A stretch of 64,000 nt of DNA, taken from Pseudomonadota bacterium (GTDB taxonomy: Bacteria > Campylobacterota > Campylobacteria > Campylobacterales > Sulfurimonadaceae). Below the pieces are notes generated by a model. It was given only the letters and a program-made list of their open reading frames with translations. It was not told the origin of the DNA and searched no databases. The stretch spans positions 192,001 to 256,000 of the forward strand of contig JAZDQA010000013.1 in the NCBI GenBank assembly GCA_043797085.1, read 5' to 3'. Of the stretch, positions 43,373 through 64,000 are shown one piece after another. The position numbers were made by a program, and so were the translations under genes. Position 1 is the stretch's first letter. Every line of letters starts with the position of its first letter.

Positions 43373-44305
43373 ATGTCACACTTTCTACCCATTGAGAACT
43401 TTATGAATCTAACGTATACCTCTTCTAAAACTTCATTTATGACCATTTTAAAATGGCAGCTTTCCAAGCGTTTCAGCGCAAAGGACAAATCAATCAGCTC
43501 AATGCCCATCCAACACCGCGACAAGCTCCCTGATGGTGATTATGCGCTTTGGATGGGGCATGCAACGCTTTGGATTGGATTGAACAACAAACACATTGCT
43601 ATCGACCCTGTGTTGAAATCCATACCATTATATACACGTTGCACACCCTTGCCTATACCGCAAGAGCAACTTCACGCCGATGTGATCCTCCTCACCCATG
43701 CTCACTACGACCATTTTGACAAACCATCAGTTTTGAGCCTGCTGAAAAAAAATCCTGAGTGTATCATCGTAGCACCCGCAGGATTCTGGCGCTATTTAAA
43801 AGGGTATATTGCCATAGAAAGATGTTTTGAACTGGAGTGGTGGGAGTCGGTGATGATTGGGGGGCTATTTATCACCCTCACCCCAAGCAAGCACTGGAGC
43901 AAACGAACTCCTTTTGATACCAATAAGGCACTGTGGGGCGGATACGTCATTCAAAACAAAGAGCAGTGCATTTATCACAGTGGAGATACGGCTATGGGAG
44001 ATCATTTCAAAGAGATAGGGGAAAGATTCGAAATTAACGAAGCGTTTTTACCCATCGGAGCCTATCGCCCCGAGGCTATCATGAAGCACAACCACATGAA
44101 CCCTCCTGAAGCGCTGAGCGCATGTGAACTCTTGGGAGCTAAAATCCTCATCCCCATCCATTATGGAACGTTCAGGCTCTCCGATGAGCCGCTGGATGAA
44201 CCATTGGAGTGGTTTAACGCTTTGACAAGTGCGAATACCTATCCCTTTGAGACTAAAGCTCTAGGGATTGGGGAGGTTTATAGAGGAGCAGAATTACTAA
44301 TATAA
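43373..44305 (+). CDS. MBL-fold metallo-hydrolase (RomA/NAPE-PLD-like)
   Basis: WMGHAT, THAHYDHFD, HWSKR, SGDT, PIGAY, PIHYGTF. Confidence 0.92.
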   Translation: MSHFLPIENFMNLTYTSSKTSFMTILKWQLSKRFSAKDKSISSMPIQHRDKLPDGDYALWMGHATLWIGLNNKHIAIDPVLKSIPLYTRCTPLPIPQEQLHADVILLTHAHYDHFDKPSVLSLLKKNPECIIVAPAGFWRYLKGYIAIERCFELEWWESVMIGGLFITLTPSKHWSKRTPFDTNKALWGGYVIQNKEQCIYHSGDTAMGDHFKEIGERFEINEAFLPIGAYRPEAIMKHNHMNPPEALSACELLGAKILIPIHYGTFRLSDEPLDEPLEWFNALTSANTYPFETKALGIGEVYRGAELLI

Positions 44306-50300: not shown

Positions 50301-51819
50301 GAACAACTGTGGATGTTTCGGATGCTTGGATTTGAGTGACGATGTTGCTGATGATGGTATTGGTAGCCGTAGTTGCGGCAGTTGAGTCAGCTGCACTTTC
50401 AGCGGCGAGGGTGATGATGGTTGCTACGGTTGCGGCGGCTTGTTGAGCGACAAGAGCATTTGCTGCAACGGTTGGATCAGAGCTTTGAGCCGCTTCAATC
50501 GGATCATAGGTTGTCAGATTGGTACCTGCGGTCAGTCCTAACGCGGTTACAACGCTGGTTGAGGCATCTGCTATGGAAGTTGATGGGTTTGCTTGAATAA
50601 TCGCTTGAACCAATGTCGTCAATGGATTGATAACGGTTGACCCCTCGGGCGCACGTAATGGCATAGTATTTTCAACGCCCGTATCGATGTTCACCCCGCC
50701 GATTGCAACAATCGAGCCTGAGGGTGTTCCAGGAGGGAGGAAAAAGTTACCACTTTCATCGGTAGTGAGACCTGTATTGTAGTCTTGAACTCCATCATGA
50801 TTGGTATCGATCCAGATTTGCGCTCCGCGAACGTATCCGTCGGCTACGGCTCCCGATGAGAGAGAAGCAATAGCGACGGCATCATTTCCTGAGGCATCTT
50901 GGATGGCATTTACACCACTTCCGTTGTAGCTAATAACCACTGCATCACCAGCGCTAAACGCAGATGTAAGAGTGAGAGTAACCGTAGATCCCGAGACCGC
51001 AACAGCAGTTACAACATTGGCGACACCACCTGTTGTAATGGTGAAACTAGTAGAAAGTGGAGGATGAGATGCATCAAGAGTTTCTCCGTAGGTCAATACA
51101 ACGGTTTTGCTCACACCGTGCGCTAAAACACCCGTTAGTACTGGAGCTGTCGTATCAGCAGGAGCGGAAGGAGCACTGCTCCCACCTCCGCCGCCACCTG
51201 CTGCAACGGCAACTACGCCTACGCCAAGAGCACCCAATCCGACCATGGCACCCGTAGACATCCCAGCAAAGAGTCCGCCTGCTGTTTCTACTGTTGCAGC
51301 TGTACCTGCGCCAGCACCTCCTGCAACTGCGTCTGTAGCTACTCCTGTAGCCACCTGGGCATAACGGTCCAAATGCGCAAGCGATGTGTTGTTGGCAAGA
51401 GCCGTTTGAAGTGTTTCGTTTTGGGACACCATGCCCATCAATGTCGTGGTATTACCATGAGAATAGACCAAACTGCTTCCATTAGAAAGAGTTGTTCCTG
51501 TATCGGTGGATGCAATAGTATGGCTTGCCCCATTATCTAAAGACAGTTCGATTTCAGCTCCCGGGGAGGTATAAAACCCTTCCAAAGAAATTTGAGTTCC
51601 ATCTGCGTACTGAAGCGAAAGGGTATCCCCCTCTTTTAGTGCGATAACATCGTCCGCAATCGAGTCTGCTCCCGCTTTTTTGAGGCGAAATTTCTCGCCT
51701 GCTTTCACACTTATTTTCGTGTGCGACCCGGTAGCTCCTTCACCAAAAGAACCTTTATTTCCCACTACTTGCACTGCTTCGATCACATTTGCCGATGGCA
51801 TCTCAACTGCTGGTTTCAT
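44278..51819 (-). CDS. Giant T1SS-secreted Ig-repeat adhesin (BapA/Bap-like), 2513 aa
   Basis: Prefix domain, Gly-rich hydrophobic segment, SwmB-like repeat, many D-x-AGN Ig repeats, cadherin-like PDYENPTD, C-terminal GD-x-D-x-V-x-L-x-GW secretion-signal-like tail. Confidence 0.9.
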   Translation of the reverse strand: MKPAVEMPSANVIEAVQVVGNKGSFGEGATGSHTKISVKAGEKFRLKKAGADSIADDVIALKEGDTLSLQYADGTQISLEGFYTSPGAEIELSLDNGASHTIASTDTGTTLSNGSSLVYSHGNTTTLMGMVSQNETLQTALANNTSLAHLDRYAQVATGVATDAVAGGAGAGTAATVETAGGLFAGMSTGAMVGLGALGVGVVAVAAGGGGGGSSAPSAPADTTAPVLTGVLAHGVSKTVVLTYGETLDASHPPLSTSFTITTGGVANVVTAVAVSGSTVTLTLTSAFSAGDAVVISYNGSGVNAIQDASGNDAVAIASLSSGAVADGYVRGAQIWIDTNHDGVQDYNTGLTTDESGNFFLPPGTPSGSIVAIGGVNIDTGVENTMPLRAPEGSTVINPLTTLVQAIIQANPSTSIADASTSVVTALGLTAGTNLTTYDPIEAAQSSDPTVAANALVAQQAAATVATIITLAAESAADSTAATTATNTIISNIVTQIQASETSTVVLDLGDSTTISNMTAGVTLSDEVQSAIADASTAIQAATVLSEITTAQSVALDTVAVSASTITATAITADTTPAIKINLTTTSTDGTAAISGDTVLLKADGVQIASSTLSELDIARGYITLNSPVLSEGVHAISAVIVDQAGNISAPYPSVNVTVDTTPTTPSTINRIATDDIINLVEKTAGVVLSGTIASGSTVTVEGNAATVTGTSWSYTLTAGDYTAMGEGTETIDVRVTAANATFADSTRNITIDTITPTAPTINAVSTDSAINTAEKNGTVTISGTAEANALITLTLGAGNIHAVTTNGSGAWTYTLTEADYTSIGSGTTITATAKDAAGNVSALVSQAITVDTGAPLLTVNSIATDNIINSAEKAATVTVTGVNEAGATVTVNGASATVTGTTWSYTLTSGDYTAMGEGSETLTIVTTDAAGNATTRTKTINIDTTIATPTAVLTTDSGTSATDDITNSAALTFSSKAADVTRTFTVDAGSASATYVAPTADGSHTVTVTDTDTAGNTATVAKTFTLDTTIATPTAVLTTDSGTSATDDITNSAALTFNTAAVDVTRSFVVDGGSASAIYVAPTTEGSHTVVVTDTDTAGNTATLTKTLMIDTIAPTFTSGTTTTVSENTTTAVYTAVATGDATYSLGGTDAALFNVDSVSGAVTFKVAPDYENPTDAGTNNTYDITVTATDTAGNTSNQAVAITVQNVDVTVNNVATDNIISAAEKATGVTLTGNNEPGISVVTVNGQNATVNGTSWSYALDTAAITAMGEGSEILTIVSGGTTITKDITVDTVAPIITMNPATADNILNALENSNPIKTITGTTTAQDGQVVTYKVDGIAKGTGIVSGGAWSVTFAAIAPFLSDGAHIRSAEVSDTAGNIAIVSSDFTVDAAAPTITISAITADDILNTAEVAAGGAISGTTTAEDGRIVTVKINGFDLGTATVSSGAWSFPVSASDLGTLTQGSYSITADVSDTAGNPAVQATHSFSVDSVAPTGTISNASFDNILNATENVAGSKTITGTSDAENGSTVVVKIDGNIKGTTTVTGGAWSLTYTTTGVLSDGTHTRSAEITDLAGNVGIVSKTFTADTVVSALGYTLSSGTATVSNLEVGATWEYQIDGGSFFAGTGNTFAISTVGSHTFSIRQTDSAGNVSTISNGVSADGGNPPPNYTPYTMINNNTLLIAKGQALNIDLQNYVSDPDGDTVTITVNSSTLPTGLSISNGIITGSTTATSGSLNVTLDDGHGGISTQTINLAAIDMPSSMAYVYGAAATIDSTTNFFGVDSYDLGIWSLSIGDVVSGSTTEGSFASYNYANGAYVADTNDAGNFDVVSTTATGVTLTHSGTTETVVFSDAKAVTSVDGVVTTGLNSVTATWTVTAQTNTVATATDWWTENYTYWDQSLNNGQGGQAPITTLTGLRDAFVSPNWGGDVYINENTRVNLVGTTGATSGTLISQVWDGTYNTYTDQNGLQQIDKHTVDGAAISGGTWAIETISGVEYLTVTVPNQGIHAFKVENGVLLSTEIAAAGTSYSETMFYGPSLVTFQGVVIDVIAANAPIIIGTPFDAVIISSTLAATETAITAFPVGTTFTDGYVTMVFSSATAGTITEPNGLVHNLTLANGIASASVEGITYSYKMLSGSGDMIILGQTDTDLTVEMNGETQGPPAIWTLISTTATVDPFPSSGIMTLWETSTDNFGDQYGTTWAKTVFDFTNNTAQDYFINGTADTVQTFTVDTTTNTMHIAATASNGRTSDIQLMGGFNGFYAFESHYTESYTWGQNSAGGSADMSAYLVAHSDILWSENGYDNNNNGTMYDYGMVTRTNGTVTGTTDYNSNLANHSDSTENWSSVSATLSNGNLVINEGDRTNTYSIANNEMNVTQAGTDVFSFTETNPFSYTYAYEMNMGNGTVGVGLHDAMALNVGDLNYNHTLYGIDSAQDTGVNAITITPADVLAQGVSDGLGHYGIGINKGDNDSVTLTGWTDTTQDVNISGIMYSIYTDNTQVAQLYISNSAPL
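48489..48992 (-). repeat. Tandem 252-bp (84-aa) Ig-domain duplication inside the adhesin
   Basis: DTTIATPTAVLTTDSGTSATDDITNSAALTF occurs twice with near-identical DNA at 48661-48740 and 48913-48992. Confidence 0.9.
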
Positions 51820-51914
51820 CTCGCTTGCCTTTAACGTCAGAATTATTATCCGTTATTTATAACACAACGAATCTTAATATATCTTCAAAAAGCTTTTAAA
51901 ATCAACAAAATATA

Positions 51915-53084
51915 TCAACGCTCATGCAGTGATTCAGAGAACGTTTTCGTAACGGGTTTTGACAAATAGGTCAGGACACTGCGGTTGCCGGTGATAATAT
52001 CGACTTGGGCGCTCATTCCGGGGGCTATGTCTATTTTTTTACCGGATTTAGAGATGAGCTGTGTTTGATCCAGCGCGATTTGCACTCTAAAGTACTGCTT
52101 GTCTCCCTGTTGTGTTTTTTCGGTCAAAGTATCGGGGCTGATGTATTTTACTTTTCCGTGAAAAATTCCATAAATACTGTAATCGTACGCATCGAGTTTA
52201 ACGGCTGCTTTTTGCCCTTGTTTGATAAACGAGATATCCGACGGACTGAGTTTCGCTTCGATGATGAGCTCATCACCGGAAGGGACAAGCTCTAAGATCA
52301 CATCACCCGGTCGTACTCTTGCCCCTTGTGTCGTTAAAATAATATTTTTGACGATAGCATCCATTTGTGAAATAATCGTTGTTCGCTCCAAAGTAATAGA
52401 GCGGTCGGTTAGCTCTTGCTCTTTGGTGGAGAGCTCTTCTTCGGCTTTGGTCATTTCGGCTTGAGAGTCTTGGAAGTATTTATTTCTTTTGTTCGATATT
52501 TGCCCTTTTAAATCGGCGATTTGACGTTTTATACGGATAATCTCCGTCGCACCAATATCGCCGTTTTTTAGCAAAGGAAGATTGAGATCCAGCTCATCCT
52601 GCGCCAGTTTTAACGATTCTTCCAAAGCGGATATTTCATCATTGAGCGCTTGCTGGCGGCGATGAAATAAAGCGGTTTGATTATCAACAAACTCTGTATA
52701 GTTCTTTACCTGTTGGGAAAAAACCAGCGGCTTGCCGTACACTTCCGCTCTGAGACGAACCAAGGCTGCTTGAAGTGCGGCCACTTTAGCACGGCTGTCA
52801 TCATACGACGCTTGCGCTTGGGATTTTTCCAGAACGATGAGACGATCCCCTTTTTTAACATGCTGCCCTTCGTGAACGTAAATCTCTTCAACCACTCCGT
52901 CATTAGCCGATTGGATCTCTTGGGTTTTTGCTGTCGTTATGACTTGCCCTTGGGCGTGTGAAATTTGGTCGATTTGTGCATACGATGCCCATGCGAAAAA
53001 AGGGACTATCACTAGGAATAATGAGCCGAATACAACCACGAGAGGGTTTAGGCGTGTTATGTAGGGAAGAGTGTGTGATTTCAT
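51915..53084 (-). CDS. HlyD-family T1SS periplasmic adaptor
   Basis: N-terminal TM, V-EGQ-VKKGD, DAYDYSIYG, PGMSAQVDIITG-RSVL-YL. Confidence 0.95.
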   Translation of the reverse strand: MKSHTLPYITRLNPLVVVFGSLFLVIVPFFAWASYAQIDQISHAQGQVITTAKTQEIQSANDGVVEEIYVHEGQHVKKGDRLIVLEKSQAQASYDDSRAKVAALQAALVRLRAEVYGKPLVFSQQVKNYTEFVDNQTALFHRRQQALNDEISALEESLKLAQDELDLNLPLLKNGDIGATEIIRIKRQIADLKGQISNKRNKYFQDSQAEMTKAEEELSTKEQELTDRSITLERTTIISQMDAIVKNIILTTQGARVRPGDVILELVPSGDELIIEAKLSPSDISFIKQGQKAAVKLDAYDYSIYGIFHGKVKYISPDTLTEKTQQGDKQYFRVQIALDQTQLISKSGKKIDIAPGMSAQVDIITGNRSVLTYLSKPVTKTFSESLHER

Positions 53085-55186
53085 TGTTTGCCCTGTGCGG
53101 TAGGTTTGAGTTGTTGCAACACTGCGTCGCGTGGTCCGTCCATCACGATTCCCTGCGGCGTCATGACGATAATACGGTTTACCAGTCCCAGCAATGCAGG
53201 TTTATGGGTCACTAAAATAAGGGTTTTATCCGCAGTGATTTGTTGATGCAGTGCCGTTAAAATATTTCGCTCTGTCCCCTCATCCATGTTGGCAGTGGGT
53301 TCATCCAATAGCCAAACATTGGGAGACGCTAATATCATTCTCGTGATCGCAATCATCTGTTTTTGACCGCCTGAAACACTTTCTCCCCCTTCGGGAACAG
53401 GAGTGTCTAACCCTTGGGGGAGTGAATTGATAAGATGGATTAATCCGGTTTTTCCGGCAGCTTCGATAATCTTATCATCATTGATCCCGACCAATCCCAG
53501 CAAAAGGTTATCGCGAAGGGTTCCTGAAAGGAGTTTGATGTTTTGAGGAAGATACCCGATGGTTTCATTGAGTCGATTGCGTGAGATATGCTGGATGTCG
53601 ATTCCGTTGATCAGTACGCTCCCCTCTTGAGGCATATAAAGCCCTGAGAGGATTTTTAACAGCGTTGATTTTCCTGAGCCAATGACTCCCAATATTGCGA
53701 CTCGCTCACCCTCTTTGATCGTCAAGTTGGCAACTTTTATGTTTGCCATATCTTTGCCATAGCCGAATTGAATGTTTTGGCACGAAAAGCTGGGGTTCAT
53801 ATTGACGGGACTCAAAGGGCGCTCAATCCCTTCGTTGTCGCTTTTGAGGGCATAGACGTTATCCAAATCTTTGACGGCAATTTTGGTTCGTCCCCACTGA
53901 ACGAGGAGGTTTGGCAACATCGCGATAGGGGATAACACACGTCCGGAGAGAATCGTAACGGCAATCAATCCCCCCATCGTCAGGGTATCGGTGGTACTTA
54001 CCAAATACGCCCCCGTACCCACCAATGCCATATAGCTGATTTGCTGTAAAAATGCCGCCATATAGTTGGAGAGTTCGCTGTAATGACGTATGGCTATATC
54101 ATCATGGATTGCATCTTCTGTGAGGGCATTCCATCGGCTTAAAATGCTCCATCCTGCACCGGTTGCTTTTATGTTTTCCGCATTTTCGACAGTTTCAACG
54201 AGCAATCCCAGTTTTTTATGGGACGCCATCGACGAGGTTTGAGAAAGTTTTTCGATTTTTTTACGAAAAAGAGTACCGGTAATGATCGAAACCACTAAAA
54301 AGATCAAGGCAATCAAGCCCATAGACCAGCCGGAAATCATCACAATAACCGCTAAAAAGATCATCGAAAAAGGAAAGTCGATAATCAAATATAAAGCAGC
54401 CGAGGAGATAAAACTGCGAACGGTACTGTAGCTTTGAAGCTGACCCGATAAGGTTCCGATACTTTTAGGAAGGGCATCGGAACGGATTTTTAAAAAGCGA
54501 TTAAAGATATCATGTGAATAGGCTACGTCCATATTTTTCGAAGCATGATCGAGAATCGTTGCACGGGAAAGTTTGAGTACCATTTCTAAAAAGATGGCAA
54601 TAAAGACTCCGATGCTCAAAGCAATCAACGTCGAAATTCCCTGTGTAGGAATAACGCGGTCGTACACTTGCATACTGTAAAAAGAGGTACCGAGTGCCAA
54701 GATGTTGATGCTCAAAGAGGCGATGGCGGCATGAATGAGTATCGGTTTTTGAGCGCGTGCCACTTCCATGAACATTTGGGTTGCCGATATTTTTTCAAGG
54801 CTGGAACGTTGCGATTTGATGGAGGTAAACAGTGTTTTTGCCGGAAAGTTTCTCTCGCGGCGAATTCCATTTACCCCGTCACTTTTCCATGACCCGTCGG
54901 CTTCGTGTTCGATGATGACCCGCATCCCCTCACCCGGTATTAATGCCAATATCGGCAATGCCTCATGGGACAATGTTTTTGTCCAAAAAGGTTTTTTGAG
55001 ATTAAACGTCTCAAAAAGCGTTTCGAAGAAAGCAAGAATCGATTTATCGTCGATGGTCACCAATCGCTTTTCTAACGTCACAACCTCATACGAGGATAGT
55101 CTCGATGATGCGAAATGGGGAAGCGAGCAGTGCCCAGTAAGCCATTGCATATCTTCTCTAGCTTTATCCAGATGGGTATAGATCAT
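53081..55186 (-). CDS. T1SS ABC transporter (LapB/HlyB-like)
   Basis: SMQVYDRVIP, GVIGSGKST, VSGGQKQ, LLDEPT. Confidence 0.95.
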   Translation of the reverse strand: MIYTHLDKAREDMQWLTGHCSLPHFASSRLSSYEVVTLEKRLVTIDDKSILAFFETLFETFNLKKPFWTKTLSHEALPILALIPGEGMRVIIEHEADGSWKSDGVNGIRRERNFPAKTLFTSIKSQRSSLEKISATQMFMEVARAQKPILIHAAIASLSINILALGTSFYSMQVYDRVIPTQGISTLIALSIGVFIAIFLEMVLKLSRATILDHASKNMDVAYSHDIFNRFLKIRSDALPKSIGTLSGQLQSYSTVRSFISSAALYLIIDFPFSMIFLAVIVMISGWSMGLIALIFLVVSIITGTLFRKKIEKLSQTSSMASHKKLGLLVETVENAENIKATGAGWSILSRWNALTEDAIHDDIAIRHYSELSNYMAAFLQQISYMALVGTGAYLVSTTDTLTMGGLIAVTILSGRVLSPIAMLPNLLVQWGRTKIAVKDLDNVYALKSDNEGIERPLSPVNMNPSFSCQNIQFGYGKDMANIKVANLTIKEGERVAILGVIGSGKSTLLKILSGLYMPQEGSVLINGIDIQHISRNRLNETIGYLPQNIKLLSGTLRDNLLLGLVGINDDKIIEAAGKTGLIHLINSLPQGLDTPVPEGGESVSGGQKQMIAITRMILASPNVWLLDEPTANMDEGTERNILTALHQQITADKTLILVTHKPALLGLVNRIIVMTPQGIVMDGPRDAVLQQLKPTAQGKQ

Positions 55187-56448
55187 TTCATTTCTCCGGA
55201 TTCAAGTTTTATTTCTCCATTTTTTAACGCCAAGCGATAGGCAGATGCCACCAGTGTCGCTTTAATATCTGCCAGAGTATTTTTGTTTTGTGTGAGTTCT
55301 CGTGATGAGTTTACCAGATCAAGCCATTGACGTTTACCCGCAATAAAAAGACGGGTATAGGAGTCCAATACGTTTTGAGAGGCTTCTATGGTCTTGTTCA
55401 TCCCATCGATACGATCCATCGAGGCATGATAATTATCGAAATCGAGCATCAAGGCATCGCTGAGCTCCCGTTCTTTGGTCAGCTTATCCGATTGGACTTG
55501 CAAAACCTTGGACTCGGCACTTTGGATACTCGACAATGCGGACAACCCTGCTCCCGGTGACATAGAGACAGCAACATAAAGTACATTATCGGTCGTAGCT
55601 TGATCGCTGTACATCGAGCCTCGCAGATGCTCTGCACGCAAAGAGACGTTGGGCCATATAACGGCTTCTGCTCTGGCTTTTTCTGCTTGGGCCGTTTTAA
55701 TTTGCTCACTGATTTTTTTGAGGGAGGGATGGGTTTTTATCATTTGATCCATCATTTGGTTAATAGAGGCTGTTTGTTTGATAATCTTAGTATTGCTAAA
55801 CTCAACGGCACACTCCATCTTGGAACCTATGAGCAGTTCCAGTTGAGAGCGTGCGGTATTACGTTTTGATCTGGCAACGGTCAAATCTGCACTGATTTGA
55901 GAGAGACGGGATTTGATAAGCTCACTGTCTGCAACCGATGAGACACCTGCTTCAATACGACGGTTTAACATTTGATCAAACACTTCAAGCTGTTTTTTTC
56001 CATCTTCCAGTGCAGCTATGCTTCCATCCGCTTGGACATAGTTTTGCAAAACACGCAAGAGGTTTTCCATCAACACATACGCACTTTCATCCAAAGCATA
56101 TTGGGATTCATTTTTACGAGATTGGGCAATATCAACCATAGCATCGAGCTTGCCTCCCGTCCACAATGGCTGATCGAGACGTATCGTCGTCCCTGTCCGT
56201 CCAGAACCTTGGGATACATCCACCGAAGGGGTAGGATAATAGTTCCACTTCGCCCCCTCTAACTGAGCATCGGCACCTTGGATGATGTAGCGTGAGGATT
56301 GGATACTGGGATAGGTTTTAAAACTGGCATTCATAAGTGTCTCGACACTGCTTATGCAGATATCGCTATTTCCGACACGGAGGGGAGTTTCTTGGGCATC
56401 ACAGAGCGTTGAAAAAAAGATTAGAAAAATTCCAATAGCATAATGCAT
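55183..56448 (-). CDS. TolC-family outer membrane channel
   Basis: Signal peptide; QPLWTGG, F-AGKRQWLDLVN. Confidence 0.92.
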   Translation of the reverse strand: MHYAIGIFLIFFSTLCDAQETPLRVGNSDICISSVETLMNASFKTYPSIQSSRYIIQGADAQLEGAKWNYYPTPSVDVSQGSGRTGTTIRLDQPLWTGGKLDAMVDIAQSRKNESQYALDESAYVLMENLLRVLQNYVQADGSIAALEDGKKQLEVFDQMLNRRIEAGVSSVADSELIKSRLSQISADLTVARSKRNTARSQLELLIGSKMECAVEFSNTKIIKQTASINQMMDQMIKTHPSLKKISEQIKTAQAEKARAEAVIWPNVSLRAEHLRGSMYSDQATTDNVLYVAVSMSPGAGLSALSSIQSAESKVLQVQSDKLTKERELSDALMLDFDNYHASMDRIDGMNKTIEASQNVLDSYTRLFIAGKRQWLDLVNSSRELTQNKNTLADIKATLVASAYRLALKNGEIKLESGEMK

Positions 56449-56492
56449 ACATATAACCCTTTAAAAAAGCATATTGTACCGTAATGAGTAGA

Positions 56493-56511
56493 CTCTTCCG
56501 AAAAGGAAGAG
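56493..56511. terminator. Hairpin after the 1271-aa adhesin
   Basis: CTCTTCC-GAAAA-GGAAGAG. Confidence 0.5.
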
Positions 56512-56532
56512 CTGTTAAAAAGAGAGGAGTAT

Positions 56533-59500
56533 TTAGATTACGGTATTAATACTATGCGTAAATGAGCTTACATCGCTACCATAGATACTTTGCAATGCTT
56601 GCGCATCATTACCTGGATTGTCGGTATAGGTGACAATCCAAGTTGCGCTAGGGGTATCAGTGATTGATGGATCGATACTAAGTGTTACATTATTGCCTAA
56701 TACCGAAACTGCTGTAGCTACAAATTTCAGCAAAGCTGCTCCGTCAGTAAGATCAGGAGTAAGCGTTCCATCGGTTACATAAAACATACTATTTGGGGCA
56801 TACATACCTTCATCTAATAATGAATTAAAAGTAATGTCAATCGTACCCGTACTGGTGTGACCTACCACATCTGCAACAGGAGCGGTAATCAATGGTGCTT
56901 TCGTTTCTACTATGTAGTTACCGGTACTACCGCCAACACCTGTATTCCCTGCCACATCGGTATACACACCTGCGAGCGTGATTGTATTTAACACATCTGC
57001 TGCTATTCCTGCAGTTGGGGCGAATGTTCCTGTATAGGTCACTCCGCCATCACCGCTAAAGAGGTTGTTAATTGTTCCGTTTGCACTAGATAAATTTAAA
57101 TCACTTCCATCAAACCCTAGAACCGCTTCGCTAAATGTGAAAGTAACGATGGGAGCGTCTCCCGCAGTGACTACTGCATCGTTCATTGAGATAACAACCG
57201 TAGGTGCTTTCATATCTACGGCTTGTATCGACTGAAGGGCTACGGTGCTTGGATTACCATAGAAATCTGTGACTGCACCCGCAGCGACATCGACCGTTAC
57301 ATTCCCTTTAACACCCGCAGTAGGAGTTATATCCAACGTGTAGACGGAAGTGCTGACTGTAGTCAGTGCACCTGCCGGAGTCCCCCCTACAATTGTAATA
57401 TCTTGGAGGGTAAAGTCTGTAACGGGTTCACTAAAAGTAAATGTATACGTCAAATTACCTCCGACGATGTTAGCAACAGCCGCCGCTTCATCGTCAGATA
57501 TAGCTATAGTCGGAGCACGAGTATCGACATAATACGTATAGGGAGTAGTTGTCGTACCGGCAAGACCATTGAGGTCATGATAATCACCAGCACCAACACT
57601 AAACACATTAGAGGTAAACTCTACGTTTGCACTTGCGGTAAAAGTTGCAGTCCAAACACGTGCATCAGCCGTAGATGCTAAAGCGCTTAGTGTTCCATTA
57701 TTGAAATGAACAAGAAGATCTCTAACCTCCTCAGAAAAAGTAATAGTCACTAAAGAGCTTTGACCAATGCTTAAGTTTGGATTGTTAAAAAATATTTGTG
57801 TTACAGTAGGAGGAGTAACATCAGGCTTGATATAGGTGAAAGACGTAGCATCATTCCCTGCTAAATCTTGAATAGCTGGTGTTAAATCTGTGGTTACGTC
57901 TTTGTACACAACCCGAACACTCTCAAGATTTGTAAAATCATCCGCTATAGCTTTTGGCATAATTAGCGTAACGGTATCACCTAACATGGAAACAGCTTGA
58001 ACAGGGATAAGATGTGTATTGATATAAACATCAAAGCCTCCCGGATCCGACATATTTACCGCTTCCAGCGATGAATTAAGCGTAAAGGAGATAGTTTTAT
58101 TAACGTAATCGTATATCCAATCATTGACCCCGTCAAATGTTGTATCCATGAGTAGCGGAGCTAACATATCTACTACCTGTACGGATGATGTGTCCGAAGC
58201 AATATTTCCAACATTACCCGCCACATCATGGTATACAGACGATAGTACGCCTATTGTCATATTTCCTTCGTAACCAACTTCTGGCGTTACGCCAAGTGTG
58301 TAAGTCATACCATCCGGACTAGCCGTAAATGTTTTAGCGGTTCCGTGCGTTACGACAATATCTCCTGCCGTAAAGTCTTTGACCACTTCATCAAATTTAA
58401 ACGTATAGAGGATATCGGCTCCATCCGCTTTTGACGTGGCATCACCATTGCTCCCATCCATGTTAGCGGTGACGTCTCCTTGATTGTTTGTAATCGTGAG
58501 TTTTGGTCCTGTAGTGTCAGTGGTAATTGCTTCGGTGTTGCTCGTTGCAATACTGACATTTCCTGCTGCATCACTCTGGCGCACTTGAATCGCACCAATC
58601 GAATACGCTGTATTATTGGAAAGGTTAAAAGTTGTTGCACTTCCACTTGTCCACGTACCCCCATCTAAACTGTATTCCCACGTAGCTCCCGCTTCTATTC
58701 CTGACACTGTCATAGCTGAGCTACTTGTAATGTTATCGGTATTGTCTAGGCCTGTATCGTTAGCAGGTAAAAGATCAAGCGTTAATGCAGTTGGGGCTAA
58801 CATATCGACAAGTTGTGATGAATTTGCGGCAAGGGATTGTGCGCTTCCTGTGCCAAGAGCTGCGCCTGCAGCCACACTCACGGCAACATTCCCTTCATAC
58901 CCGGCAGTTGGGGTTACCACCAACGCATAAGTAATACCGCTACCGCTAAATGCTCCTTTGCCTCCACCGGTTACGGTAATGTCATCTGCGGTAAATCCTG
59001 TAACGGTATCGCCAAACGTAAAGGTATATGCAATAGACCCTCCTGCAATATTTGCCGTAGTTGAGGGTTCATCATCGCTAATAGTTAGAGTGGGCGCTGG
59101 CGGTGGGGTAGTGGCAGTGTTAACCGTATAGTTTGCACTTTGAGCTGACGTGCCTGCATTTCCTGCGCCATCGATATAGGTGCTCGCTAAGTTAATAACA
59201 TTGGAAACATCTAATGAAATACCAGCCGTTGGCGTAAAGACAGCCGTCCACGTAATGCCGCCATCAGCACTGACAAAAGTACTAACCGTCCCATTTTGGA
59301 CCGTAATATCCGCATTACTAAATCCTGCTACCGCTTCAGAAAAAGTGATCGTGACGGTAGCCGTTTCTCCACTATTAAGTAAACTGTCTGAAAGCGCAAT
59401 TGTTGCAGTAGGTGAAGTGGTGTCAGCCACAACTGCATTTAAATGCGCTGTTGCCGCTACCTCTGTAACCAATGTAACACCTGTAGGTGTTAATGCCGTT

Positions 59501-60348
59501 TGTAATGCAGGATCAAGCGCTGTTTGAACATCAATAACGGTAGTAATCAATGCAGCAGTAGCTGGAGCGATAGTGATCCCATTAGCTGCATTGCCATCAC
59601 TATCAAGAGATTGCAAAAACTGGGCGATATTAACAACTTTTGTATCAGTAGTATTGGTTCGAAGTACACCCGCAATTTCCTGAATAGTGACAATATGATC
59701 CGCATTAATGTTAGCAGTATTAAACGTCCCGATCGTTGCCTGTCCTACTTTAAATGTTACTGTATCCCCTGCTTTATATGCGAACGATCCTAATGATCCA
59801 TCAGCGAGCGTAATACCTGTAACACCCGTAAGTCCACTGCTCGTCGTATACGATACCCCCTGAACCAAGCTGTCAACTAAATTTGCGGTTAATGTTGTGG
59901 CTGCTGGAACTGTTGTCGTGCTTCCGCCGCCACCTCCACCGCCAGCTGCAGCGGCAACTCCGCCCGCAACTGCGAGAATCCCTACACCCCACCATGCACT
60001 CGTCGACATAACAGGAGTAGGAGCTGCAACTGGGGCTACGCTCACTGCGCCAAGCTCCATTGCGCCTGCTTGAGTAGTACTGTAGTTGGCGAAGGCGCCG
60101 CTTGAGTCAATGCCTGAGATTTGAACGGTTTGGTCATACGAAGCATACTCATTCAAAATCACAGAAGGATCTGTTGCGCCGTCTGCAAAAATATGGAGAT
60201 CTTTATTGACCATTTTTGTTGTTATCTTTTTTGGTGGTTGTCCTGTTGAGGCATCGACCAAAACAATTCTATCGCCGCTCATAACCATTTGTTGCGTAAG
60301 CTGTGTCACGCCATCTATTTTTTTGCCAACCACCATTGTTTTCATCAT
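56533..60348 (-). CDS. Large Ig-repeat surface protein (probable second T1SS substrate), 1271 aa
   Basis: Bap-like prefix, WWGVGILAVAGG...GGGGGGG, repeated TFSE-x-V-x-GF Ig domains, SwmB-like repeats. Confidence 0.85.
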   Translation of the reverse strand: MMKTMVVGKKIDGVTQLTQQMVMSGDRIVLVDASTGQPPKKITTKMVNKDLHIFADGATDPSVILNEYASYDQTVQISGIDSSGAFANYSTTQAGAMELGAVSVAPVAAPTPVMSTSAWWGVGILAVAGGVAAAAGGGGGGGSTTTVPAATTLTANLVDSLVQGVSYTTSSGLTGVTGITLADGSLGSFAYKAGDTVTFKVGQATIGTFNTANINADHIVTIQEIAGVLRTNTTDTKVVNIAQFLQSLDSDGNAANGITIAPATAALITTVIDVQTALDPALQTALTPTGVTLVTEVAATAHLNAVVADTTSPTATIALSDSLLNSGETATVTITFSEAVAGFSNADITVQNGTVSTFVSADGGITWTAVFTPTAGISLDVSNVINLASTYIDGAGNAGTSAQSANYTVNTATTPPPAPTLTISDDEPSTTANIAGGSIAYTFTFGDTVTGFTADDITVTGGGKGAFSGSGITYALVVTPTAGYEGNVAVSVAAGAALGTGSAQSLAANSSQLVDMLAPTALTLDLLPANDTGLDNTDNITSSSAMTVSGIEAGATWEYSLDGGTWTSGSATTFNLSNNTAYSIGAIQVRQSDAAGNVSIATSNTEAITTDTTGPKLTITNNQGDVTANMDGSNGDATSKADGADILYTFKFDEVVKDFTAGDIVVTHGTAKTFTASPDGMTYTLGVTPEVGYEGNMTIGVLSSVYHDVAGNVGNIASDTSSVQVVDMLAPLLMDTTFDGVNDWIYDYVNKTISFTLNSSLEAVNMSDPGGFDVYINTHLIPVQAVSMLGDTVTLIMPKAIADDFTNLESVRVVYKDVTTDLTPAIQDLAGNDATSFTYIKPDVTPPTVTQIFFNNPNLSIGQSSLVTITFSEEVRDLLVHFNNGTLSALASTADARVWTATFTASANVEFTSNVFSVGAGDYHDLNGLAGTTTTPYTYYVDTRAPTIAISDDEAAAVANIVGGNLTYTFTFSEPVTDFTLQDITIVGGTPAGALTTVSTSVYTLDITPTAGVKGNVTVDVAAGAVTDFYGNPSTVALQSIQAVDMKAPTVVISMNDAVVTAGDAPIVTFTFSEAVLGFDGSDLNLSSANGTINNLFSGDGGVTYTGTFAPTAGIAADVLNTITLAGVYTDVAGNTGVGGSTGNYIVETKAPLITAPVADVVGHTSTGTIDITFNSLLDEGMYAPNSMFYVTDGTLTPDLTDGAALLKFVATAVSVLGNNVTLSIDPSITDTPSATWIVTYTDNPGNDAQALQSIYGSDVSSFTHSINTVI

Positions 60349-60497: not shown

Positions 60498-61025
60498 TTA
60501 CCGTTTGAGCAAAATATCTACACTCAAATCAACTTGATCGCGTACCGTTAGAAACATCATTGTGATCGGTTTGATTCCAAAATCGGTCATTTTTAGTGTA
60601 CTTGCGGTTTTAATGTGTACTTTCGAGCCTTCTTCGATAATTGTTCCATCAAAACTCAGCGGTTTAGTGACACCGTGCAAACTCATCGTCCCCTTGAGAG
60701 TATAAGCATTTCCCCCTTTGGCAATAACCTCTTTAACTGCAAAGACCGCTTTGGGAAAACTATCGGATTCGAGGGATTGCTGCATGTGTTCATCGCGCTT
60801 TTTATTATCACTGACAAGATCCCCCATCGAAACTTCAATCGTCCCTTTTAAGCTGGACGGATTTGTGTCCATGACTAAATGCGACGTTGCCCGCTTGGCG
60901 ATTGGGTCAATCGTGCTGTCTCCAAATACTTCCGTATGCGCTTTAATCACGCCGGAATCAAAACTCAAATTTCCTGCGAACATTGACGTCGCCAATATCA
61001 TGGCGAGTGAACTAACTTTTTTCAT
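60498..61025 (-). CDS. YceI-family periplasmic polyisoprenoid-binding protein
   Basis: Signal peptide; NKKRDEHM, FP-A-F, LHGVTKP, DFGI. Confidence 0.9.
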   Translation of the reverse strand: MKKVSSLAMILATSMFAGNLSFDSGVIKAHTEVFGDSTIDPIAKRATSHLVMDTNPSSLKGTIEVSMGDLVSDNKKRDEHMQQSLESDSFPKAVFAVKEVIAKGGNAYTLKGTMSLHGVTKPLSFDGTIIEEGSKVHIKTASTLKMTDFGIKPITMMFLTVRDQVDLSVDILLKR

Positions 61026-61975
61026 ACAGTTCTCCTAAAATAAAATGGATAGATAAGGACAAAAATGCCCAAAAGAATGACAACAATCCAAAGTTCATGC
61101 GTCAAAGCGACTAAATTGGCTATCGACGATGCACCCCAGCCTACCCCTACCATAGTAATTCCAATCACTCGAACATCGCCCATCTGAGTCAACTCGCGGA
61201 ACAATAAAACATTATAATATGAAATAACAATCGGATAAATAATAGCGAGCAATACCGGCTGATGAGAGTAATAAGCAGCATAACTTAGGGCAAAAAGTCC
61301 CAATATTATCCCATTGCTTCGCATCAATGTTTTGCCATAACGAAACGCCAAATAAACTCCCAAGAGATGCGATATAACAATCAGTGCCATATAGTGCCGC
61401 CAAACATCCATCTCATCTGAGCGGTTCAAGGTTTCAAACAAAGCGGAATCTGCAAAAATCCACACCATCATCACTGCTATCACTTTAAAATTGAGGGGAG
61501 TATGGTGGCGATGTGAGCGCATAGGCAGGCTTGAAAAATACAGTGCTGCCATTGAAATACTGGGTAACATAATTGCTATGATTCCTCGCTGTTGGAACGG
61601 ATACGTATAGAGGGCTGTTCCTACCGCGTACGAGAGAGCAAGTCCCAGTGCCAGATTTTTTCGGCTTTGTTCACGAAAGACATAGAGCATCAAAGGGGTT
61701 GTGTAGCCCACGATAAAGCCCAATACCAATAAAAGTCCCAGTGAATAATCGGGATAAAACCACGAAAGAATAATCTGTGCGATAAACATAAAAAAAAGCT
61801 CTTGCTTAATCCCATGATGCTTCCAATACGCACTCACAATACTCCCAATCACCCCTCCAATAGGAAGCGTATAAAGATCGTGTATGTGAGAGTCAAACGC
61901 TCCCACGACTCCCGTTTGTGCAATCAGGAGATAATAAAGCAACTGAGAACTAAGAACAATGACGAGCATATTCAT
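61022..61975 (-). CDS. Polytopic membrane protein of unknown function (distantly MFS-like)
   Basis: About 11-12 hydrophobic segments; ATGA overlaps on both sides. Confidence 0.75.
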   Translation of the reverse strand: MNMLVIVLSSQLLYYLLIAQTGVVGAFDSHIHDLYTLPIGGVIGSIVSAYWKHHGIKQELFFMFIAQIILSWFYPDYSLGLLLVLGFIVGYTTPLMLYVFREQSRKNLALGLALSYAVGTALYTYPFQQRGIIAIMLPSISMAALYFSSLPMRSHRHHTPLNFKVIAVMMVWIFADSALFETLNRSDEMDVWRHYMALIVISHLLGVYLAFRYGKTLMRSNGIILGLFALSYAAYYSHQPVLLAIIYPIVISYYNVLLFRELTQMGDVRVIGITMVGVGWGASSIANLVALTHELWIVVILLGIFVLIYPFYFRRTV

Positions 61976-63516
61976 TTACGCAAGCCTAAGAAATAAATCA
62001 TGGCATACAGACCATCATAAAAAGCAATCAACAATGCCAACTCATCCAAAATTCCTGCCATATACAAAGCGGCGAACGTCGAAGAGATGAGGAATCGGAT
62101 GATGGCACTGAGGCTTGCGAGACGATCTTCATCCCCATGCAATCCAAACCAGTGAATCATCCCCGTCCCCATGACAAAGGCAAACACGATATACTCATAC
62201 GTTGCGGTAAACGTAAACCCAAGCAAGCCAAAAAGCCAGCCCCCTGCGATCACAAGAATCAGCCCGCCAAAAGCGTCCCCTAAAAATCCCATCAAATGAT
62301 AAATTTTTAACGGAGTATTGATAGGGATAATCAATCGGTCATAGAGTATTTTTGCGACTAAAACAACAATCATGACCCCGAAAATAGCCCTCATCATCAA
62401 AAATGGCTCAATACTTCCGCCAATCAATCCCGCTTCTATAAGACCGGCGAGAGAAAGAGAGAGTGCCATTAAACTAATTAACAGAGCCCAGAGTGTCGCA
62501 TACAATCGTTTAAACAGCGCCGGTAAAAGATGGTAGGCGATAGAGAGAGCCATAAAAGCAACCCCTAATCCCATGGCGATATGGGCATGTCCCACGACCA
62601 AATCGTTGCGATGTATCAGCGCTCGAAGTTCAGGGATAAAAAGGATATTTCCCTCAATATCGACAAAGATAAACGCCGCAATCGATAGGATGAGATAGGG
62701 ATTTGTTTTAAACTGTACCCCAGCATCCCGAAGCCAAATCCACAGCAGCGGCAGATACAACAACGTCAAATACTGAAAAAACCACTCTTCGTTGTAACTC
62801 AATGGGTGGAAAAAATTACGTATTATCAGTGAAGTGACATATCCCGCCAACGGAATCATCCACAGCCAGTGAAAGCGTGGTGCGAACGCTTTAGGTGCGG
62901 AAAGCTTGATGAGCAAATAATAAATCGGGAGAAGAGCGAAACTCATCCCCAGCGTATTGTCCCCATGAGGGCCTACGAGAGTTTTTTCCACCTGACCGTA
63001 TTGGGGATTCATCAAAACTACCAAAGCGATGGGGGCGGCGATAACCGCTAAAAGCGATACATTCACCCACAGCGGACGTTTTTCATAACGCTTCAGTGCG
63101 TCCAAAAGTGCCAAAAGATAAAACAGCCCGCTAAAGGCGAGGAGAAAGTTCAACTGATAGGGAAAATCGTAAAATGGTAATCCCCGAATATTTCCAAAAA
63201 GAAGCGCCATACTCATAAAGAGTAAAAATACGTTCCAAACGACGAAGTATCGCGCCAAATGTTTCAAACCGTTTTGACTCAAAACACCCTCTTTTTCAAA
63301 CAGCGCAAAAGGCAACAATGAGAGAATAAGCGGGAAAAAACCATACAACATTTGCGAAATATGGAGAGACCTGGCACGCTCAGGGGAAAGCAGGGTCATG
63401 GAAGCATCTAATCCTAACATCTCAACTGCGTACACTAATCCCGTAAAGAGTCCTAAAAAGAGCCAAAACAAAAGAAGAGGGAGATTATCGTTTAAGAATT
63501 TTGACAATTTTTCCAT
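61972..63516 (-). CDS. Divergent heme-copper oxidase subunit I-like (CcoN-like) membrane protein
   Basis: RARSLH matches CcoN RLRPLH; IEGNILFIPELRALIHRNDLVVGHAH matches CcoN [26 protein letters not shown]; start at ATG 63516 after GGAGG. Confidence 0.8.
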   Translation of the reverse strand: MEKLSKFLNDNLPLLLFWLFLGLFTGLVYAVEMLGLDASMTLLSPERARSLHISQMLYGFFPLILSLLPFALFEKEGVLSQNGLKHLARYFVVWNVFLLFMSMALLFGNIRGLPFYDFPYQLNFLLAFSGLFYLLALLDALKRYEKRPLWVNVSLLAVIAAPIALVVLMNPQYGQVEKTLVGPHGDNTLGMSFALLPIYYLLIKLSAPKAFAPRFHWLWMIPLAGYVTSLIIRNFFHPLSYNEEWFFQYLTLLYLPLLWIWLRDAGVQFKTNPYLILSIAAFIFVDIEGNILFIPELRALIHRNDLVVGHAHIAMGLGVAFMALSIAYHLLPALFKRLYATLWALLISLMALSLSLAGLIEAGLIGGSIEPFLMMRAIFGVMIVVLVAKILYDRLIIPINTPLKIYHLMGFLGDAFGGLILVIAGGWLFGLLGFTFTATYEYIVFAFVMGTGMIHWFGLHGDEDRLASLSAIIRFLISSTFAALYMAGILDELALLIAFYDGLYAMIYFLGLRK

Positions 63517-64000
63517 CCTCCATTTCAATGATTGTATCGGCATACTCGGCTATTTTTTTATCATGGGAAGCGACCACAAATCCTGTCCCCTCGTGCGAAA
63601 AACGCTTGAACAATTCATACACACCCAACGCATTTTTCGTATCCAGGTTACCCGTTGGTTCATCGGCAAATACCACGGCGGGGCGATTTACCAAGGCTCG
63701 TGCGATGGCAGCGCGCTGACGCTCACCCCCTGAGACCTCATCACTGTAACGAGCGGCTAAGCGCCCAATCCCCAAACTCTCCATCAGTGGCTCAACGCTG
63801 TCTTCATCCAAAGCAGAAAGGGCAATATTTTCCCGCAAGGTCAAATAGGAGATAAGATAATGAAACTGAAACACAAATCCGATGTTGTGCCGTCTAAACA
63901 CATCAATATTTCCTAGCTCGCTGATGCCTTTTTCATCAAAGGTCACTGCACCGCTTGTGGGATTAAGGAGAGTTGATAGGATTGATAACAAGGTTGTTTT
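63485..64000 (-). CDS. LolD/MacB-type ABC transporter ATP-binding protein (partial, starts beyond the window)
   Basis: Walker A tail KTTLL at the window edge; IGFVFQFHYL, VSGGERQR, ADEPTGNLD. Confidence 0.92.
   Translation of the reverse strand, partial: KTTLLSILSTLLNPTSGAVTFDEKGISELGNIDVFRRHNIGFVFQFHYLISYLTLRENIALSALDEDSVEPLMESLGIGRLAARYSDEVSGGERQRAAIARALVNRPAVVFADEPTGNLDTKNALGVYELFKRFSHEGTGFVVASHDKKIAEYADTIIEMEDGKIVKILKR

What the first reader, a model, noticed from the sequence alone, without database searches (positions are those of the whole stretch)
61972..63516. CcoN paralog with heme ligands intact but a rewired CuB/FeB site
Seen: by-eye alignment to the true CcoN in this window shows the helix II His (RARSLH) and both helix X His (GHAH) are kept, along with the helix IX EG. 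The helix VI CuB motif WWYGHNA reads GPHGDNT, so His becomes Asp and a new His sits two residues earlier. The helix VII GGHH reads FFHP, with only one His. There is also an extra C-terminal block of about 4 TM helices. Known: three His ligate CuB/FeB in O2 and NO reductases, and a His->Asp ligand change is described for putative NO dismutases and the gNOR family. Inference: this is a di-heme membrane protein that is not a normal O2 reductase. It could be a new NO/N-oxide enzyme, a heme or metal trafficking factor, or a sensor.
Basis: partly seen in the sequence, partly recalled or inferred. Interest (0 to 1): 0.82.

Follow-up and report, generated by a model that had tools for sequence, protein, structure and literature searches.

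The report
Copper-less oxidase relative in lipid-export operon
This gene encodes a conserved relative of the cbb3 respiratory oxidase that keeps both haem sites but cannot build the copper site, and it travels with genes for flipping, extracting and carrying lipids, so it probably does redox chemistry on an envelope lipid rather than respiring oxygen or nitric oxide.

Summary
The motifs are real. The 514-aa protein has the cbb3/cNOR fold plus four extra helices. Across 108 Campylobacterota homologues the three haem His and GPHGDNTLGMS are almost invariant, and dN/dS is about 0.06, so it is not decaying. But the helix VII His is absent from all 32 distant members, so at most one classical CuB-position ligand (Asp186) remains. 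gNOR has the same His-to-Asp yet keeps both helix VII His; a joint clade with it is rejected. The gene sits in an overlapping six-gene operon (type VII ABC extractor, MFS-fold protein, YceI carrier); the MFS partner occurs in exactly the same 37 of 401 genomes. A Verrucomicrobiota-type sister family lacks Asp and His there but shares the operon, plus a prenyl synthase and an MFS-CcoO-cytochrome c fusion. Distribution does not follow denitrification. Best reading (0.5): a di-haem redox enzyme acting on an isoprenoid/lipid cargo; a peroxidase-like Asp/Arg pocket is an untested possibility. An NO enzyme is unlikely (0.12). No paper found describes it; this scan noted the operon three times before on other DNA.

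The parts
61972..63516 (-). CcoN-like gene, 514 aa, 16 predicted TM helices
   Evidence: COX1 E 5e-8, below cut-off; pLDDT 88.9
62326..63516 (-). 12-helix haem-copper-oxidase core (residues 1-397)
   Evidence: Foldseek top hits cbb3 CcoN; VIA Z 27.6 to cNOR 4xyd, 26.4 to cbb3 3mk7
61975..62325 (-). Extra 4-TM domain with invariant D414, H455, R474, D501; a separate gene in most sister loci, where D/R/D are kept
   Evidence: hhalign E 0.003, weak
63361..63363 (-). H52, low-spin haem ligand position (helix II)
   Evidence: 107 of 108, one gap; 71 of 71 in sister family
62941..62973 (-). GPHGDNTLGMS (182-192): D186 in the helix VI CuB-His column; Gly-Pro replaces the first turns of helix VI
   Evidence: mean conservation 0.997 vs 0.68 overall; alignment; helix starts at 185, pLDDT under 50 at 180-185
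62806..62841 (-). Helix VII stripe Y226 (108/108), R233 (107/108), H237 (76/108; 0/32 distant)
62581..62613 (-). H302 to GHAH (H310, H312): high-spin and low-spin haem ligand positions, helix X
   Evidence: each 108 of 108
61022..61975 (-). 317-aa 10-TM MFS-fold protein; fused to CcoO plus a cytochrome c domain in most sister loci
   Evidence: (Z 24.7)
60498..61025 (-). YceI-family lipid/isoprenoid carrier, 175 aa, signal-peptide-like N terminus
   Evidence: Pfam YceI E 3e-20; PDB hits
63485..64000 (-). LolD/MacB-type ABC ATPase (runs to 64120). Upstream, outside the window: FtsX/MacB permease (64117-65196) and a 152-aa exported protein (65193-65651)
   Evidence: overlaps of 4, 4, 32, 4, 4 nt
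43373..44305 (+). MBL-fold hydrolase that directly follows YceI in most relatives; separated here by a T1SS/adhesin block

Best explanation
A C-family (cbb3)-related, copper-less di-haem membrane oxidoreductase that is the redox unit of an envelope lipid/isoprenoid handling module. Shown: fold, three conserved haem-ligand His, loss of the His triad, strong selection, fixed operon. Inferred: it binds two b haems; the unwound start of helix VI opens the high-spin haem to a bulky substrate; electrons come from cytochrome c (CcoO fusion in the sister family) or from quinol or a borrowed cytochrome c (Campylobacterota, no CcoO in the operon). The cargo (prenyl compound, quinone or oxidised lipid) is made or trimmed by the prenyl synthase or phosphoesterase, flipped by the MFS protein, oxidised or reduced at the haem, extracted from the outer leaflet by the type VII ABC transporter and handed to YceI. 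This works like the YceI plus cytochrome b561 (BcnA/LcoA) envelope-protection pair, with an HCO scaffold in place of b561.
For: Permease, MFS protein and YceI flank the gene in 58 of 58 Campylobacterota loci of 13 kb or more. The MFS family is in exactly the same 37 of 401 genomes and none of the other 364. The sister family (hhalign 97.4%) keeps permease 18/18, YceI 15/18, short-chain prenyl synthase 15/18, CcoO 16/18. One of two unrelated phosphoesterase folds lies beside 56 of 58 loci, never both (38 MBL, 18 metallophosphoesterase). YceI structures hold isoprenoids or Q8, and YceI is commonly paired with a di-haem b561 against lipid peroxidation (PMC9113575, passages). Type VII ABC transporters extract cargo laterally from the outer leaflet (PMC9271180, passages). 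The sister family keeps all three haem His (71/71) but has no conserved ligand at the helix VI column (Ala 56, Ser 8, Thr 5, His 2), so a second metal is not needed for the shared function.
Against: No substrate, haem binding or activity is shown. The prenyl synthase and CcoO are not part of the Campylobacterota operon (the few hits are a housekeeping-type synthase and the canonical ccoO). Three of 18 long sister loci lack YceI and the synthase, so the irreducible core is ABC plus haem protein plus 4-TM domain, which also fits haem handling. H184, D186, E244 and H302 are near-invariant in this family and could still bind a non-haem metal. Kin share operons, so counts overstate independence.
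Confidence: 0.5

Rival explanations
1. Haem (or prenylated haem) trafficking, detoxification or sensing: the protein is a non-catalytic haem buffer or sensor serving an HrtBA-like exporter.
For: The ABC pair is the only partner present in all 76 long loci. HrtBA is a type VII haem extractor of similar size. An OmpR-type regulator lies beside 17 of 58 and 13 of 18 loci. The MFS protein has a His (H203) conserved in both families.
Against: The permease consensus shows no conserved Glu/His at the start of TM2 (YNQFKII / Y.sF.IL; HrtB itself was not among the PDB hits, so the site was not aligned directly). A CtaB-like haem prenyltransferase is seen in only 5 of 37 carriers, none over the cut-off. 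A CcoO-cytochrome c partner and an invariant polar pocket suggest electron transfer.
Confidence: 0.17
2. A new NO/N-oxide enzyme with a rebuilt non-haem metal site (H184, D186, E244 or H302), convergent with gNOR.
For: D186 is in the same column as the Asp of gNOR-type proteins. H184, D186, E244 and H302 are 107-108 of 108. In four genomes of one genus the operon lies about 10 kb from nirS-norCB. A sister relation to NorB is not rejected (p 0.09 and 0.34).
Against: gNOR keeps both helix VII His and has a subunit II gene; a clade with it is rejected (AU p 0.0006). 22 of 37 carriers have no NirS and no cNOR, the 15 with NirS all have cNOR, 41 cNOR genomes lack the family, and none of 37 has NirK over the cut-off. 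This genome has its own norCB-norD. The sister family lacks these residues. The operon has no N-cycle gene.
Confidence: 0.12
3. A copper-free O2/peroxide scavenger, or an assembly/regulatory pseudo-subunit of the canonical cbb3 oxidase.
For: Best profile and fold matches are CcoN/C-family. The sister operon keeps a CcoO domain. In 2 of 80 near-identical loci the operon follows the ccoNOP cluster. Y226 is invariant on helix VII.
Against: The three-His CuB site and its His-Tyr partner, required for O2 reduction (PMC11214002), are missing. The canonical CcoN is nearly universal in the phylum while this family is in 37 of 401 genomes. Linkage to ccoN is not conserved (60 kb apart here).
Confidence: 0.1
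4. Decaying ccoN paralogue.
For: Scores below the COX1 and ccoN cut-offs; long branch.
Against: dN/dS 0.056-0.072 against six close loci; intact frames in all 38 full matches; the altered motif is the most conserved stretch of the protein.
Confidence: 0.01

Closest known systems
cbb3-type cytochrome c oxidase CcoN (C-family HCO; PDB 3MK7, 8SMR)
   Same: 12-helix fold, three haem His, helix IX EG in most members, H302 column; CcoO partner in the sister family
   Different: Helix VI His is Asp, helix VII His pair not conserved, start of helix VI replaced by a Gly/Pro loop, the EYAE loop reads PFYD, four extra helices, lipid-transport operon, own long-branched clade
gNOR (B-family-derived putative NO reductase)
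   Same: Asp in the helix VI CuB-His column
   Different: gNOR keeps both helix VII His, has a cupredoxin-fold subunit II and groups with A/B; joint clade rejected (p 0.0006)
cNOR NorB / putative N2O reductase / NOD
   Same: Fold (best VIA Z 27.6); no ordinary His-Tyr site
   Different: No HLWVE motif, no three-His plus Glu FeB site, no NorC/Q/D; qNOR, NOD and N2O-reductase sequences were not in my trees
BcnA/LcoA (YceI lipocalin plus cytochrome b561) envelope peroxidation defence
   Same: YceI carrier encoded next to a di-haem membrane protein
   Different: Haem protein is HCO-fold (by homology both haems near the periplasmic side), with an added ABC extractor and MFS protein; functional likeness is inferred only
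Type VII ABC extractors LolCDE/LolF, MacB, HrtBA
   Same: FtsX plus MacB-PCD permease and LolD-like ATPase
   Different: No LolA/MacA/TolC in the operon; cargo unknown
DyP-type haem peroxidases
   Same: Invariant Asp and Arg predicted near the distal side of a His-ligated haem
   Different: Unrelated fold; geometry untested; pair absent from the sister family

Membership tests
HCO superfamily (fold) | 12-TM subunit I fold | tested here: met
HCO superfamily (fold) | Three haem-ligand His (helix II, two on helix X) | tested here: met
C-family O2 reductase (CcoN) | Three His for CuB | tested here: not met
   D186; H237 in 0 of 32 distant members
C-family O2 reductase (CcoN) | Helix VII Tyr cross-linked to the helix VI His | tested here: not met
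   Partner His is Asp; Y226 invariant but register uncertain
C-family O2 reductase (CcoN) | TIGR00780 score over cut-off and adjacent ccoO | tested here: not met
   28 bits vs 583; no ccoO in the operon
gNOR | Asp for one active-site His | tested here: met
   same column
gNOR | Other two His kept, subunit II gene, B-family ancestry | tested here: not met
   reference taken as gNOR from its motif and PMC11214002, not from a curated accession
cNOR/qNOR | FeB site of three His plus Glu; NorC or fused N-terminal domain | tested here: not met
cNOR/qNOR | Phylogenetic placement | tested here: inconclusive
   Not nested in NorB; sister relation not rejected
NOD / N2O-reductase HCO families | Nested in qNOR or close to cNOR with their specific substitutions | not tested
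   No reference sequences in session; at 514 aa it has no qNOR-type N-terminal domain
Haem peroxidase-like chemistry (DyP analogy) | Distal Asp and Arg within reach of the iron; peroxide turnover | not testable with these tools
   Model coordinates not available; loop pLDDT under 50
YceI/di-haem envelope redox module | YceI linked to a di-haem membrane protein | tested here: met
   58 of 58 and 15 of 18 long loci; linkage only
YceI/di-haem envelope redox module | Protects against lipid peroxidation; quinone ligand | not testable with these tools
   needs knock-out and ligand analysis

The most novel reading that the evidence does not exclude
The haem-copper oxidase scaffold has been repurposed into a non-respiratory, membrane-embedded lipid peroxidase or oxygenase. 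The copper site was replaced by a DyP-like distal Asp186/Arg233 pair, with Tyr226 nearby and the cbb3 His-Glu 'push' below, and the helix VI roof was opened for a prenyl or hydroperoxy-lipid substrate that a dedicated ABC extractor and YceI then move across the periplasm.
Probability: 0.2. Interest if true: 0.88.

Novelty: new variant of a known kind. Interest (0 to 1): 0.64.

Why it matters
The HCO families described in the 2024 survey (PMC11214002) reduce, or are proposed to act on, O2, NO or N2O at a haem/metal pair. A conserved branch with no binuclear site, tied to lipid transport genes in two distant lineages, would be a non-respiratory use of this scaffold. [quoted passage not shown] Cultured carriers exist (Sulfurospirillum diekertiae, Nibricoccus aquaticus, Arcobacteraceae), so the question is directly testable.

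Tried and rejected
Sequence and profile searches of PDB found nothing real (SznF hits are chance). Complex prediction of this protein with two haems and the MFS protein gave no answer (score 0.00); it is no evidence either way. The plasmid collection holds no family member. A homologue search with P0187, a lone CcoN-like/CcoO fusion with Gln at the helix VI column, returned only itself. The 4-TM domain gives only weak DUF4345 hits (best E 0.01) and helical-bundle-level Z scores. Promoter and terminator scans were at chance level. One groundwater metatranscriptome holds identical contigs over parts of the operon (depth about 4), but contigs cannot show transcription or level. Deep placement is unresolved: family plus sister is 94/95 or 95 with a long-branch warning; family plus CcoN alone was rejected when the sister was included (p 0.012); without the sister, family plus CcoN plus divergent C-types formed one side at 84/82. 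The mixture-model tree finished only in quick mode. Literature searches found no description of the family or operon. PMC11406935 (passages) added nothing.

Full report
Observation. The ORF at 63516-61972 (minus strand) encodes 514 aa. It scores weakly on COX1 (E 5e-8) and ccoN (28 bits against a cut-off of 583); the true CcoN at 1447-2928 scores 678. The nearest named relatives are Sulfuricurvum records at up to 95% identity. A profile alignment to 11 CcoN sequences (99.3%) places D186 in the helix VI CuB-His column, against 39% for NorB. The AlphaFold model (108 rows, pLDDT 88.9) has 12 core helices matching cbb3 and cNOR (Foldseek best E 4e-8 to CcoN; Z 27.6 over 377 residues, rmsd 3.6, to 4xyd and Z 26.4 over 382, rmsd 4.3, to 3mk7) and four more helices.

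Conservation. The first search gave 540 hits among 8000 candidates; the genome scan confirmed 211 of 244 stretches and kept 80. I reduced 193 candidates to 105 at under 88% identity and added three by hand. In these 108 rows H52, H310, H312, D186, Y226, E244, Q248, H302, D414, H455, R474 and D501 are invariant (H52 has one gap); H184 and R233 are 107; H237 is 76 and E288 is 90. Among the 32 rows under 55% identity H237 never occurs. Residues 182-192 are the most conserved stretch (0.997 against 0.68), and dN/dS to six close loci is 0.056-0.072. So this is a selected protein with haem ligands kept and the His triad gone. The helix VII register is not settled; by helical periodicity Y226, R233 and H237 lie on one face either way (inference).

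Family membership. PMC11214002 (passages, section 5, supplement rows) defines O2 reductases by three His plus a cross-linked Tyr, NORs by three His plus Glu, and gNOR as B-related with one His replaced by Asp and a cupredoxin subunit II. Three of 14 carrier genomes searched also hold a 551-aa protein with WWGLDLVADG, an intact helix VII HH and an adjacent small-subunit gene, which I take as gNOR. It shares the Asp column, but a clade with this family is rejected (AU p 0.0006). The family is its own fully supported long branch, not nested in CcoN, NorB or A/B; its deep position is unresolved. Its profile scores best on divergent C-type and CcoN proteins. In that paper's table the 14 Sulfurospirillum and 9 Sulfuricurvum rows each list one C-family enzyme, with A, cNOR or gNOR as the only other entries (file cut when stored, genomes not matched to mine), so this family seems not to be counted there.

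Operon. Six genes overlap by 4, 4, 32, 4 and 4 nt: a 152-aa exported protein, an FtsX/MacB permease (LolF/MacB-like), a LolD-like ATPase, this gene, a 317-aa protein with a 10-helix MFS fold and YceI. Of 80 loci, 58 are 13 kb or longer (22 shorter ones dropped): permease, MFS and YceI are in 58 of 58, the small protein in 44. In 401 genomes of the phylum, 37 have full-length matches and 45 only weak hits to other oxidases; the MFS family is in the same 37 and in none of the other 364. An MBL hydrolase (38) or a YaeI-like metallophosphoesterase (18) lies beside 56 of 58 loci, never both, which suggests one required phosphoesterase step filled by two folds (inference).

Sister family. The full-library profile search gave 72 hits; beyond the family, the best long ones (E 5e-8 to 9e-5) led to 592 proteins, whose named members are Verrucomicrobiota. 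Profile match 97.4%. In 71 rows all three haem His are invariant, but helix VI reads GGATGxSLLG, with Ala 56, Ser 8, Thr 5 and His 2 at the D186 column, and the helix IX Glu is not kept; an SHH motif (62-63 of 71) sits where this family has E243/E244. Of 80 metagenome loci, 18 are 13 kb or longer (62 dropped): permease 18, YceI 15, prenyl synthase 15, CcoO 16. The usual order is YceI, prenyl synthase, permease, ATPase, CcoN-like, 4-TM protein, MFS-CcoO-cytochrome c fusion, two-component system. Profiles of the Campylobacterota permease, MFS, YceI and small protein find their counterparts there. The synthase has intact DDLPxxDD and DDxxD motifs and is closest to FPP/GGPP synthases. The 4-TM domain keeps Asp, Arg and Asp in both families (weak pairwise score).

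NO hypothesis. cNOR-like genes are in 56 of 401 genomes and 15 of the 37 carriers. Strong NirS hits are in exactly those 15, and no carrier has NirK over the cut-off. This genome has its own norCB-norD. In favour: four genomes of one genus have the operon about 10 kb from the nir-nor cluster (two read in full), with unrelated genes between; one inherited event could explain this.

Mechanism. Shown: fold, haem-ligand residues, loss of the triad, selection, module. From the literature: YceI proteins hold octaprenyl compounds or Q8, and YceI with a di-haem b561 lowers lipid peroxidation (PMC9113575, passages); type VII ABC transporters extract cargo from the outer leaflet (PMC9271180, passages). 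Inferred: the protein is the redox step for a lipid or isoprenoid cargo. In both families a Gly/Pro loop replaces the first turns of helix VI, which would open the high-spin haem to something larger than a gas. A distal Asp/Arg pair is what DyP peroxidases use (PMC6153280, abstract only), which makes D186/R233 a testable lead; the role of the cbb3 helix IX Glu as H-bond partner of the proximal His is recalled, not from a call. The sister family lacks the pair, so it cannot be the universal mechanism.

Novelty and verdict. Searches found no paper on this family or operon; the library omits most subscription journals, and one supplement of PMC11214002 was an unreadable image. This scan reached a similar reading three times on other DNA; these are unchecked notes, seen after I had recorded my reading, and are not counted as support. 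Verdict: real, conserved, undescribed branch of the HCO superfamily; most likely an envelope lipid-redox component (0.5), less likely haem trafficking or sensing (0.17), an NO enzyme (0.12) or a cbb3 accessory or scavenger (0.10). Interest 0.64.

Noticed in passing
window 44278-60348: A roughly 16-kb T1SS block (2513-aa and 1271-aa repetitive adhesins, TolC-like, ABC and adaptor genes) sits between YceI and the MBL hydrolase, which are adjacent in most relatives; L004, L005 and L030 also have an adhesin-like gene after YceI.
   Followed up: partly
L252-L254 (G373, G191, G303): gNOR-type HCO (helix VI WWGLDLVADG, HH kept) with a small subunit and an Rrf2-like regulator, in genomes that also carry this family.
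   Followed up: partly
P0187, P0178: Two further lone CcoN-like proteins without the helix VII His pair; P0187 has Gln at the helix VI column and is fused to CcoO and a cytochrome c. No relatives found for P0187.
   Followed up: partly
L158, L171, L190: Sister loci reduced to ABC plus CcoN-like plus 4-TM gene, preceded by a cNMP-binding/4Fe-4S protein and without YceI or prenyl synthase.
   Followed up: no
G070:C1:1010056-1011931: The MFS partner gene appears split into two pieces about 900 nt apart; possible insertion.
   Followed up: no
G304:C34 and C47: Two copies of the CcoN-like gene in one genome (one at a contig end); duplication or assembly artefact.
   Followed up: no
L016 and L023, 818-5684: The operon starts about 160 nt after the canonical ccoNOP cluster on the same strand.
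   Followed up: partly
G000:C12:7274-7804: A second close YceI paralogue elsewhere in the genome.
   Followed up: no
L002:2297-8617 (G000:C13, beyond the window): TonB receptor, 4Fe-4S protein, 2-hydroxyacyl-CoA dehydratase-like subunit and its activator ATPase in one operon; an unusual combination.
   Followed up: no
L064, L067, L079, L173, L222: Envelope-modification genes (EptA-like by eye, ArnT-like, LTA-synthase-like sulfatase) and cytochrome b561 genes recur near the module in a few loci.
   Followed up: partly
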